Source: an archaeon (GTDB lineage: Archaea > Asgardarchaeota > Thorarchaeia > Thorarchaeales > Thorarchaeaceae). Taken from it: a DNA stretch of 32,000 nucleotides. The notes beneath the pieces were generated by a model. The model worked only from the letters and a program-made list of their open reading frames with translations. It made no database searches and was not told the DNA's origin. Shown here one piece after another: positions 15,763-26,388 of the stretch (positions are counted from its first letter, which is position 1; each line of letters starts with the position of its first letter). The translations under genes were made by a program, and so were the position numbers. The stretch spans positions 63,896-95,895 of the forward strand of contig JAJRZD010000064.1 in the NCBI GenBank assembly GCA_024275415.1. Direction: 5' to 3'.

Positions 15763-15883
15763 TGGCGCCGAGGATGAGATTCGAACTCATGCGTGACAAA
15801 GCACACTGGTTATCTTGATCCTCAGCATCTGAGGATATTGATTTTCAAGACCAGCGCCGTAATCCTGGCTTGGCTACCTCGGC
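15763..15883 (-). tRNA. tRNA-Ser(UGA) with 32-nt intron at 37/38 (15812-15843), CCA encoded
   Basis: Acceptor stem GCCGAGG/CCTCGGC, G73, long variable arm; bulge-helix-bulge (BHB) with central CTTG/CAAG and bulges AAA and ATA. Confidence 0.93.
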
Positions 15884-19752: not shown

Positions 19753-19893
19753 TGGTAGCGGGTGAAGGATTTGAACCTTCGATCTCGGGGTGTCCCCGTG
19801 CGAAGCTCTCAGGCATCGCCTTATGAGCCCCGCGGGATAGACCTGTGAAGCCATATCTGAACGAATCAGCTGCGGAGGCTTCCCCAACCCGCT
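19753..19893 (-). tRNA. Initiator tRNA-Met(CAU) with a D-loop intron (about 19845-19876) and an anticodon-loop intron (19792-19821)
   Basis: A1-U72 pair, acceptor AGCGGGT/ACCCGCT, anticodon stem CGGGG/CCCCG, T arm GAAGG-TTCAAAT-CCTTC, CCA encoded; upstream promoter-like AAAAAGCCTTAAAAC. Confidence 0.9.
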
Positions 19894-25152: not shown

Positions 25153-26388
25153 CTATAGCTCCGCATAACCAATCAGTCGCCACTTGTTTTCCACACGACG
25201 ACCGATGGCTATTCTCTGCCCTTCTTCGGCTACGACAGGTCTCTTCAGTTCTAACTCGACCGCATCCCCATGGAGCCGTGAGATGATCCCTACAGTTGCA
25301 GCGGTGCCTACAACCAGCATCAATGGCTCTCTCAGTCGTAAGTTGTCTACCACTCGCTTTGATTCGGATCCAACAACTCTTTCCATGAGTTGTGGGGTTA
25401 TCATTATCTTATATAGTGCCTTGGGAAGCTTGCCAATCTTGCCGACTACGTTGCCTACTAACCTATCTGCCCGTGTCGAAGCTGGATCCAATTCTGTGCC
25501 CACACCAATCAACCCTCCAGGGTATGCCTCTTCAAGGCTGTTCCCACTTCCCGACCGCAGGCTCACAATATTTGCTCTGATTGGTTCAAAGCCTTTGTCA
25601 GTTTTTTGTCCAGGGGCTATCTCAATCTCGTCACCGATTCTCAGCTTTCCTTGAACAATCGAGCCCCCCACAACCCCTCCTTTCAGGTCTTGCGGAAGAC
25701 TTCCTGGCTTATTAATATCAAAGGAACGTGCGATGAACATTTTCGGAGGTGCATCTGCATCTCTATCCGGTGTAGGAATCTTTTCTTCGATTGCTTTTAT
25801 CAACATGTCAGCATTAGCCCCAAAGACAGCGGAGAAAGGAATGATTGGGGCGTCCTCTGCAATCGTACCTCTTATGAATTCTTTGATCTGCTTGTAATGC
25901 TCAAGAGCCTGCTCCTTACTCACAAGCTCTATCTTGTTCTGGACGATAATCAGGTTCTTGACGCCAACAATTTGAAGGGCATGTAGATGCTCAGCGGTTT
26001 GTGGCATTGGACAGGGTTCATTAGCCGCAATGACAAGGATTGCACCATCCATTAGACTTGCGCCACTAAGGCATGTAGCCATCAGGGACTCGTGGCCTGG
26101 ACTATCGACAAATGAAATTTCTCGGAGTGTTTCTAACTTGCCTCCACACTTGGGACATTTGCCATCATCCGCTAGGTGTGATGTTGTGTACCCCTCAGGG
26201 TCGCCGCAGGCATCGCATTGCATGATTTTGGTAGCAGCGTATCCAAGACGGATTGAGATTCCACGCCGCACCTCATCAGAATGACGATCTGTCCATTCAC
26301 CTGTAAGATAGCTGACCATCGTGGTCTTTCCGTGATCCACATGGCCTAGAGCTCCTATACTTACTTCAGACTGTCCCTGATATTTCAC
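25153..26388 (-). CDS. eif2g: Translation initiation factor aIF2 gamma
   Basis: [19 protein letters not shown], zinc knuckle, DSPGHE, QNKIEL, WRLIGY. Confidence 0.97.

What the first reader, a model, noticed from the sequence alone, without database searches (positions are those of the whole stretch)
19792..19833. Initiator tRNA anticodon intron folds two ways: possible nested, two-step intron or splicing switch
Seen on the minus strand: G26-CGGGG-CTCATA|AGGCGATGCCTGAGAG|CTTCGCACGGGGAC|A-CCCCG. Fold A excises all 30 nt at 37/38 but has an A-G mismatch in the central helix (CTCA/GGGG). Fold B is a BHB with a perfectly paired central helix (CTCA/TGAG, bulges TAA and AGC, inner GGC/GCC). Its outer helix uses intronic TTCGC as a decoy while intronic CGGGG sequesters the true CCCCG strand, so it removes only 16 nt and leaves a 14-nt intron for a second, relaxed cut. 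Known: multi-intron and intron-dependent sequential splicing occur in some Thermoproteales tRNAs. Inference: ordered splicing could gate production of the initiator tRNA.
Basis: partly seen in the sequence, partly recalled or inferred. Interest (0 to 1): 0.72.

Follow-up and report, generated by a model that had tools for sequence, protein, structure and literature searches.

The report
Initiator tRNA intron with decoy helix
The only initiator tRNA gene of this Thorarchaeota (Asgard) genome has an anticodon intron carrying a conserved "decoy" strand that pairs with the anticodon stem and competes with the shape the splicing enzyme needs, so this looks like a built-in lock on initiator tRNA maturation, not two nested introns.

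Summary
It is the single-copy initiator tRNA gene (minus strand, 19893-19753) of a Thorarchaeota MAG. It has a 32-nt D-loop intron and a 30-nt intron at 37/38.

Intron GAG-CUUCGC pairs contiguously with exon G26-C34. This 9-bp "decoy" helix scores -28.7 kcal/mol, against -18.5 for the best BHB fold and -12.1 for strict Fold B.

Fold B exists as a second BHB only in two species of the genus, and weakly in two more. Close relatives destroy TGAG but keep the contiguous GAG. Nested two-step splicing is therefore not supported.

The decoy helix is conserved in 48 distinct Thorarchaeota initiator-tRNA introns of two architectures:
- Short type: 153/153 cells paired, only C/U changes opposite G, and A28-U to G28-C compensation.
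- Long type: 90.7% paired, against 54% or less when slid.

The BHB fold also covaries. Other Asgard initiator-tRNA introns, and other intron-bearing tRNAs of this genome, fold straight into the BHB.

My best reading is a single intron plus a selected, mutually exclusive lock helix that gates or delays splicing. The trigger is unknown and no RNA data were found. An earlier scan note on this same stretch proposed tandem introns; nothing similar was noted on other DNA.

The parts
19753..19893 (-). Initiator tRNA-Met(CAU) gene with encoded CCA, 141 nt, carrying two introns. It is the only copy in the assembly.
   Evidence: In-silico splicing gives a perfect 79-nt cloverleaf. ARAGORN and Rfam at gathering score miss the unspliced gene. 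The genome regex finds only one copy.
19845..19876 (-). D-loop intron, 32 nt, with a relaxed BHB: central GAAG/CUUC, bulges CC|U and AC|A, inner 3 bp, no outer helix.
   Evidence: BHB scan. The spliced D-loop AGCCAGGUCUA matches relatives that lack this intron.
19792..19821 (-). Canonical 37/38 intron, 30 nt (long, 'L' type).
   Evidence: Homologous introns occur in 24 Thorarchaeota genomes.
19825..19833 (-). Exon strand X: G26, C27-G31 (the 5' strand of the anticodon stem) and C32-C34. It pairs either with the decoy or with the true 3' side.
19800..19808 (-). Decoy strand Y, GAG-CUUCGC, complementary to G26-C34 as a contiguous 9-bp helix. Its last 4 nt (UCGC) instead pair with intron GCGA in the BHB fold.
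   Evidence: It is in the MFE of the arm and of the whole pre-tRNA. Conservation is shown.
19811..19821 (-). Intron 5' hairpin P1 (A-GGC GAU GCC-U), formed only in the decoy fold. Its GCGA (19816-19819) is the 5' strand of the BHB inner helix.
   Evidence: The inner helix covaries.
19808..19811 (-). The U is not conserved.
19786..19798 (-). CGGGG-ACA-CCCCG. In the BHB fold, GGG pairs with C32-C34, ACA is the 3' bulge holding the splice site, and CCCCG is the 3' strand of the anticodon stem. In the decoy fold the segment folds on itself as a small hairpin.

Best explanation
This is one ordinary-position (37/38) BHB intron, removed in a single step from a relaxed BHB. That BHB consists of the anticodon stem, a 3-bp central helix with an A35.G mismatch, a 3' bulge ACA, and an inner helix GCGA/UCGC. 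The intron also carries a selected decoy strand (GAG-CUUCGC). The decoy pairs with exon positions 26-34 and so takes away the 5' strand of both the anticodon stem and the central helix. It is transcribed before the true 3' partner and its helix is predicted to be more stable, so the precursor should first fall into this splicing-incompetent 'locked' fold and must refold to be cut. Four strands take part: 1 = exon 26-35, 2 = intron 5' strand, 3 = decoy, 4 = xGGG-NN|A-CCCCG. The locked state pairs 1 with 3 (plus the P1 hairpin). The splicing state pairs 1 with 4 and 2 with 3. Shown: both sets of helices exist, exclude each other, and are conserved with covariation. Inferred: the lock delays or gates maturation of the cell's only initiator tRNA. 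Unknown: what releases it (helicase, chaperone, EndA capture, temperature or growth state).
For: Energies of the window's arm: decoy fold -28.7, best BHB fold -18.5, strict Fold B -12.1 kcal/mol. The full 141-nt precursor MFE keeps the acceptor and T arms and adopts the decoy helix. Short-type introns (17 distinct): decoy helix 153/153 cells paired against 31-50% when slid, and 0/500 shuffles reach the observed pairing or covariation. Position 28 pairs as A-U 11, G-C 5, G.U 1. Opposite G26, G29, G30 and G31 only C/U occur. The decoy's 3' half lies in the apical loop of the BHB fold, so the BHB cannot explain its conservation. Long-type introns (31 distinct, unbiased MAFFT alignment): 90.7% paired against 54% or less when slid. 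The many G.U pairs fix the constraint to the RNA of the tRNA strand. The BHB fold is also conserved: 90.6% and 92.8% paired, with inner-helix changes on both sides. Specificity: initiator-tRNA introns of other Asgard families and of decoy-less Thorarchaeota fold to the BHB with P(anticodon stem) 0.96-0.99, against mostly <0.01 and at most 0.15 with a decoy. Most of the roughly nine other canonical-intron candidates my crude parser found in this genome fold to the BHB (P 0.34-0.99). A scan of all GTDB species found the decoy pattern, among archaea, almost only in Thorarchaeota. On an aIF2-gamma tree, position 28 changed at least 3 times; the decoy followed in 2 independent pairs, stayed a G.U pair in 1, and never went the other way. 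The gene is single-copy. Two EndA paralogues fit a broad-specificity enzyme that tolerates the relaxed BHB.
Against: Everything is computational; no RNA evidence was available. The exon side is almost invariant, so true two-sided covariation for the decoy helix rests on one pair (28) and only 2-3 independent events, and the sign test cannot reach significance. In the long type, the decoy's CGC core is also used by the BHB inner helix, so part of its conservation has another explanation. A lock of 3-11 kcal/mol with estimated refolding barriers of 14-26 kcal/mol on an essential single-copy tRNA is paradoxical. It may mean the energy model misjudges the balance in the folded tRNA body or with proteins bound. 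Some Thorarchaeota have no decoy, or no anticodon intron at all, so the element is not indispensable. No trigger or partner has been identified.
Confidence: 0.6

Rival explanations
1. Nested or tandem introns. Fold B is a real BHB that removes 16 nt first, and a relaxed second cut then removes the remaining 14 nt.
For: In this species and one congener, Fold B scores central 4 bp, inner 3 bp, outer 3 bp with 3-nt bulges. After removal of the 16 nt, ARAGORN still sees a tRNA with a 14-nt 37/38 intron.
Against: Strict Fold B scores -12.1 kcal/mol, against -28.7 for the contiguous decoy helix and -21.0 for the 2-nt-bulge register. Its outer helix is 3 bp, two of them G.U. Same-genus variants GGAGAG, U-AGAG and UGCGAG break it but keep the contiguous register. 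In 25 of 31 long-type introns there is no 3' bulge at all, so no second BHB. The 14-nt intermediate would still carry the decoy and need the same relaxed BHB, so the first step gains nothing. The A35 mismatch is the family norm.
Confidence: 0.05
2. The decoy helix is selected but is not a gate on splicing. It might be a transient folding aid for the sticky G-rich strand, or a platform that presents the unpaired A35-U36-A37 or G26 to a modification enzyme or another protein before splicing.
For: It rests on the same conservation evidence as the best explanation. In the decoy fold A35-U36-A37 is unpaired, as a tetraloop in the short type and an internal loop in the long type. Intron-dependent modification is known elsewhere (PMC4090602).
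Against: No box C/D motifs and no Rfam family match in the intron. No candidate enzyme is linked to it. The predicted stability and barriers exceed what a transient chaperone needs. Nothing upstream of strand X is C-rich enough to mispair with it (direct reading of the sequence).
Confidence: 0.2
3. The decoy is a non-functional leftover of how the intron arose (an inverted copy of the anticodon arm or a copy of the 3' splice-site region), or it is kept by DNA-level quasi-palindrome correction.
For: The decoy resembles the true 3' side with the bulge deleted (GAG + CYYCG against xGGG-NNA-CCCCG). Intron types turn over quickly: short and long types are interleaved on the aIF2-gamma tree.
Against: Across 48 distinct sequences in at least 9 genera, substitutions are almost entirely pair-preserving. 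G.U pairs are abundant, which argues against templated DNA correction, since that would give G-C. G opposite C27 never changes in 48 sequences, although in the short type it lies in a loop of the BHB fold, while neighbouring unconstrained positions show three or four different bases.
Confidence: 0.12

Closest known systems
Canonical archaeal BHB intron at tRNA position 37/38, cut by EndA and joined by RtcB
   Same: It sits at position 37/38. The anticodon pairs with the intron to form the central helix. The 3' splice site lies in a 3-nt bulge next to the anticodon stem. The genome has EndA genes.
   Different: The central helix has only 3 standard pairs, and the inner helix is offset by a bulged A. 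The intron also encodes a second, stronger partner for the exon strand that excludes the BHB. Ordinary introns of this kind, including those of other Asgard families, lack such a partner.
Pre-tRNA-Trp intron of Haloferax and Pyrococcus with a nested box C/D guide (Clouet d'Orval 2001; Singh 2004; reviewed in PMC4090602)
   Same: Intron antisense elements pair with the exon's anticodon-arm nucleotides.
   Different: That intron is about 100 nt, has C/D and C'/D' boxes, and guides 2'-O-methylation of C34 and U39. Here the introns are 20-35 nt with no boxes and no Rfam match, and the antisense stretch covers 26-34 as a plain hairpin.
Multi-intron tRNAs of Thermoproteales and Asgard archaea (Sugahara 2007 as cited in the preprint below; bioRxiv 10.64898/2026.10.13.758758)
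   Same: This gene also has more than one intron (D-loop plus 37/38). Standard annotators miss it, as that preprint reports for D-arm introns. Ordered splicing of such genes is from my recall, not from a paper read here.
   Different: The two introns here are separate, not nested. The internal 16/14-nt split is not a conserved BHB. The preprint does not mention initiator tRNA or competing folds.
Bacterial attenuators, T-box leaders and riboswitch expression platforms (mutually exclusive 1:2/3:4 against 2:3 helices)
   Same: The logic is the same: four strands, two exclusive pairings, and the upstream pairing forms first during transcription.
   Different: The output is access of a protein endonuclease to a splice motif in a tRNA precursor, not transcription termination or ribosome binding. 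No ligand or sensor is known.

Membership tests
Archaeal/eukaryal-type initiator tRNA | CAU anticodon, A1:U72 pair, and three consecutive G-C pairs (29-31:39-41) in the anticodon stem | tested here: met
   The spliced sequence and ARAGORN cloverleaf show all three.
Canonical BHB tRNA intron | Insertion between nucleotides 37 and 38 | tested here: met
   Removing 19821-19792 restores the loop CUCAUAA. Homologues without the intron align across the junction.
Canonical BHB tRNA intron | [quoted passage not shown] | tested here: inconclusive
   The 3' bulge ACA and the 5-bp outer helix are present. The central helix has 3 pairs plus A35.G, and the inner helix starts with one G-C, then a bulged A, then 4 bp. 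This is a relaxed form, and the same relaxation is common in the family.
Canonical BHB tRNA intron | Cognate splicing endonuclease encoded in the genome | tested here: met
   Two PF01974 paralogues are present (101.6 and 70.1 bits), consistent with a two-subunit enzyme. The subunit architecture itself was not tested.
Canonical BHB tRNA intron | Excision demonstrated in RNA | not testable with these tools
   No RNA run was listed.
Nested or sequentially spliced introns | A second BHB at the internal boundary, conserved among homologues | tested here: not met
   A strict motif occurs only in L001 and L002, and weakly in L006 and L058. No 3' bulge in 25 of 31 introns.
Intron-encoded box C/D guide RNA | C (RUGAUGA) and D (CUGA) boxes flanking an antisense element, with the guide 5' of box D | tested here: not met
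   No conserved boxes in alignments A1 and A2. No Rfam match at E up to 10. The introns are too short.
Bistable (switch) RNA | Two mutually exclusive helices, each conserved beyond slid and shuffled controls | tested here: met
Bistable (switch) RNA | A defined trigger that shifts the equilibrium | not testable with these tools
   None was identified.

The most novel reading that the evidence does not exclude
Thorarchaeota control the supply of their only initiator tRNA at the splicing step. An intron-encoded decoy helix locks the precursor in an uncleavable fold until a cellular factor or condition releases it. This would be a riboswitch-like conformational gate acting on a protein-spliced tRNA intron in a close relative of eukaryotes.
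Probability: 0.3. Interest if true: 0.85.

Novelty: new variant of a known kind. Interest (0 to 1): 0.62.

Why it matters
tRNA introns of the BHB type are usually treated as passive inserts whose only structural requirement is the splice motif. Here a lineage-wide, initiator-specific element is maintained that works against that motif. If the lock is real, it gives tRNA introns a regulatory role and provides a handle on translation-initiation capacity in Asgard archaea. It would also be a natural example of RNA refolding controlling a protein endonuclease. Practically, it shows that motif-based intron finders and minimum-energy folds will mis-annotate these genes, because the lowest-energy fold is not the splicing fold.

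Tried and rejected
- ARAGORN and Rfam at gathering score do not find the gene, because it has two introns.
- ARAGORN with introns allowed, run on the whole genome, gave noisy calls and mislabelled this gene as tRNA-Leu. I replaced it with my own anchor-based parser, which is crude and recovered only about nine comparators.
- RNA evidence: no RNA holder was listed for the locus.
- The genome-contig scan for the decoy pattern added no new distinct sequences beyond the family search. Its bacterial hits are chance matches in non-tRNA DNA (the two inspected, L099 and L111), and the single Desulfurococcaceae hit folds to a normal anticodon stem.
- Box C/D guide idea: rejected.
- Reading the P1 helix as a bulge-helix-loop substrate: the cuts would fall inside the intron and explain nothing, so I dropped it.
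- Shuffle control (a) of the count of structure pairs is uninformative for the long type, because the exon side never varies. I used the slid control instead.
- The sign test on independent pairs has too few pairs to be significant.
- Refolding barriers from findpath are heuristic upper bounds and are not used as evidence of function.

Full report
**What is there**

On the minus strand, 19893-19753 encodes a tRNA that ARAGORN and Rfam at gathering score do not report. Reading the sequence shows why. The D-loop holds a 32-nt insert (19876-19845) and the anticodon loop a 30-nt insert (19821-19792). Removing both gives a 79-nt tRNA-Met(CAU) with encoded CCA, an A1:U72 pair and three G-C pairs closing the anticodon stem. 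It is an archaeal initiator tRNA.

It is the only initiator tRNA copy in the 92.9%-complete assembly. Record titles of homologous contigs place the family in Candidatus Thorarchaeota, which belongs to the Asgard archaea.

**The observation**

Fold A has the anticodon stem, a central CUC/GGG helix with an A35.G mismatch, and bulges UAA and ACA. One G-C pair and a bulged A lead into an inner helix GCGA/UCGC.

Fold B has central CUCA/UGAG, bulges UAA and AGC, and inner GGC/GCC. With a 3-nt AGC bulge its outer helix is only G31.U, G30.U, G29-C.

The minimum-energy structure of the arm, and of the whole 141-nt precursor, is neither fold. Exon G26-C34 pairs contiguously with the second GAG of UGAGAG plus CUUCGC (9 bp). 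P1 (A-GGC/GCC-U) caps this rod, and CGGGG-ACA-CCCCG forms a small hairpin.

Energies for the arm:

| Fold | kcal/mol |
|---|---|
| Contiguous decoy helix | -28.7 |
| Fold B with 2-nt bulge | -21.0 |
| Best BHB-compatible fold | -18.5 |
| Strict Fold B (3-nt bulges) | -12.1 |

Shuffling the intron core reaches the observed 10.2 kcal/mol advantage of the non-BHB fold in only 3 of 1000 trials.

**Relatives**

BLAST and pattern searches recovered initiator tRNA anticodon arms from three sources:
- 38 of 86 genomes of the family.
- 133 of 400 genomes of the phylum.
- 41 metagenome contigs.

Together these give 84 distinct arms. Three kinds of 37/38 intron appear.

1. Ordinary introns occur in all other Asgard families with hits and in some Thorarchaeota. 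They end in xGAG, xGGG or xAAG plus two nucleotides. Their minimum-energy fold is the BHB, with P(anticodon stem) 0.96-0.99.
2. A short Thorarchaeota type (20-22 nt, 17 distinct) places GAGYYYYGY one nucleotide after the 5' splice site.
3. A long type (29-35 nt, 31 distinct, including the window) has a 5' hairpin, then GAG/GGG plus a pyrimidine-rich 6-mer, a spacer, xGGG and NN.

In every short and long intron the predicted minimum-energy fold pairs G26-C34 with the intron. P(anticodon stem) is mostly <0.01 and never above 0.15.

Most of the roughly nine other canonical-intron candidates my parser found in this genome fold to the BHB (P 0.34-0.99); one Tyr-like candidate (GUA anticodon) gives 0.012. 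So the decoy looks specific to the initiator tRNA. A scan of one genome per GTDB species found the decoy pattern, among archaea, almost only in Thorarchaeota. The one crenarchaeal hit folds normally.

**Is Fold B a second splice motif?**

No. A strict BHB at the 16/14-nt boundary exists only in the window's species and one congener, and weakly in L006 and L058.

Within the genus, UGAGAG becomes GGAGAG, U-AGAG or UGCGAG. Each change damages CUCA/UGAG, but the last GAG, which is contiguous with the 6-mer, is kept.

Across the 31 long introns, the base before GAG is U 14 times, C 9, A 7 and G 1. The gap between GAG and the 6-mer is 0 nt in 25 and 1 nt in 6. Without a 3' bulge there is nothing for EndA to cut.

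A35 is unpaired in 14 of 17 short introns and 22 of 31 long introns, and central-helix mismatches are common across the phylum. Two EndA paralogues in the genome fit the broad-specificity two-subunit enzyme reported for most Asgard genomes (bioRxiv 10.64898/2026.10.13.758758).

**Is the decoy helix selected?**

Short type, MAFFT alignment A2:
- 153 of 153 cells pair, against 31-50% when the partner is slid.
- 0 of 500 shuffles reach the observed pairing or covariation score.
- Opposite G26, G29, G30 and G31 the decoy shows only C or U.
- Position 28 pairs as A-U 11 times, G-C 5 times and G.U once.

The decoy's 3' half lies in the apical loop of the BHB fold, so the BHB cannot account for these constraints. 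Neighbouring unconstrained positions vary freely.

Long type, alignment A1: 90.7% of cells pair, against 54% or less when slid. This includes the GAG and YY columns, which are unpaired in the BHB fold.

The many G.U pairs place the constraint on RNA of the tRNA strand. They also argue against DNA palindrome correction.

On an aIF2-gamma nucleotide tree, position 28 changed at least three times. In three independent pairs the decoy followed twice, stayed a G.U pair once, and never went the other way. That is too few pairs for significance.

The BHB fold is conserved as well, at 92.8% and 90.6% paired. Its inner helix shows changes on both sides: U-A/C-G in the short type, and three such pairs in the long type.

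**How it probably works**

Four strands give two exclusive states. The decoy lies 5' of the true partner, so during transcription the lock should form first. It is also predicted to be more stable, by a median 3.1 kcal/mol in the short type and 7.6 in the long type. Heuristic refolding barriers are about 15 and 23 kcal/mol.

Only the other state shows EndA a BHB. I therefore read the element as a lock that delays or gates splicing of the cell's only initiator tRNA.

That both helices are conserved is shown. That the lock forms in vivo and limits splicing is inferred. The releasing factor is unknown. The size of the predicted lock on an essential gene is itself a warning that the model may overstate it.

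**Comparison with known systems**

The intron belongs to the canonical 37/38 BHB class in relaxed form.

The nearest functional analogue is the pre-tRNA-Trp intron of Haloferax and Pyrococcus, whose box C/D guide pairs with the anticodon arm (PMC4090602). Here there are no boxes and no Rfam match, and the introns are far too short.

The logic resembles bacterial attenuators, but the output is access of a splicing endonuclease. The searched literature, including the recent Asgard tRNA-intron census, does not describe competing folds or initiator-specific features. An earlier scan note on this same stretch proposed two tandem introns, and my data contradict it. No similar note exists for other DNA.

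**Verdict**

The nested-intron reading is rejected. The 'switch' reading is upheld in a revised and much broader form. All of this is computational, and RNA evidence is needed.

Noticed in passing
window 19845-19876 (-); L002-L005, L011: The D-loop intron sits after AGCC. Same-genus relatives instead carry an unrelated D-loop intron a few nucleotides further on, after AGCCAGG. The window's intron resembles that of another genus (G024/L011; shared GAUUCGUUC and CUUCAC|AGG). This suggests rapid intron turnover or exchange at the D-loop.
   Followed up: partly
window 25153-26388 (-) and 19753-19893 (-); The aIF2-gamma gene, whose protein binds Met-tRNAi, lies about 3-8 kb from the initiator tRNA gene on the same contig in more than ten Thorarchaeota genomes. 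This synteny between the initiator tRNA and its carrier is conserved.
   Followed up: partly
genus g6 genomes: Short and long decoy introns occupy the same syntenic locus, yet they are interleaved on the aIF2-gamma tree (at least 5 changes; for example G069 short is sister to G054 long at 99/98 support). This implies frequent replacement or recombination of intron alleles, or a gene tree that differs from the species tree.
   Followed up: partly
window 15766-15883 (-): A second intron-bearing tRNA (Rfam 43.7 bits; ARAGORN calls it Phe-GAA) has an insert of about 45 nt placed 3' of the usual 37/38 site in the Rfam alignment.
   Followed up: no
L006 (G011), about 59 nt upstream of its initiator tRNA gene: A partial copy of the initiator tRNA 5' end (AGCGGGUUGGGG...) lies just upstream of the intact gene. 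It may be a remnant of duplication or of integration at the tRNA.
   Followed up: no
L040 and L066 (G048, two loci on one contig): These are odd initiator-like genes in which CUCAUA is followed by CCCUG/CCCUC and, in one, a T-arm-like segment. They may have different intron positions or be decayed copies, and they do not fit any of the three intron types.
   Followed up: no
G000:C117:27095-27231 (-): A Tyr-like tRNA (GUA anticodon) with a 31-nt intron also has a non-BHB minimum-energy fold, with P(anticodon stem) 0.012 and a 3 kcal/mol difference. The pairing is different and weaker than in the initiator tRNA.
   Followed up: no
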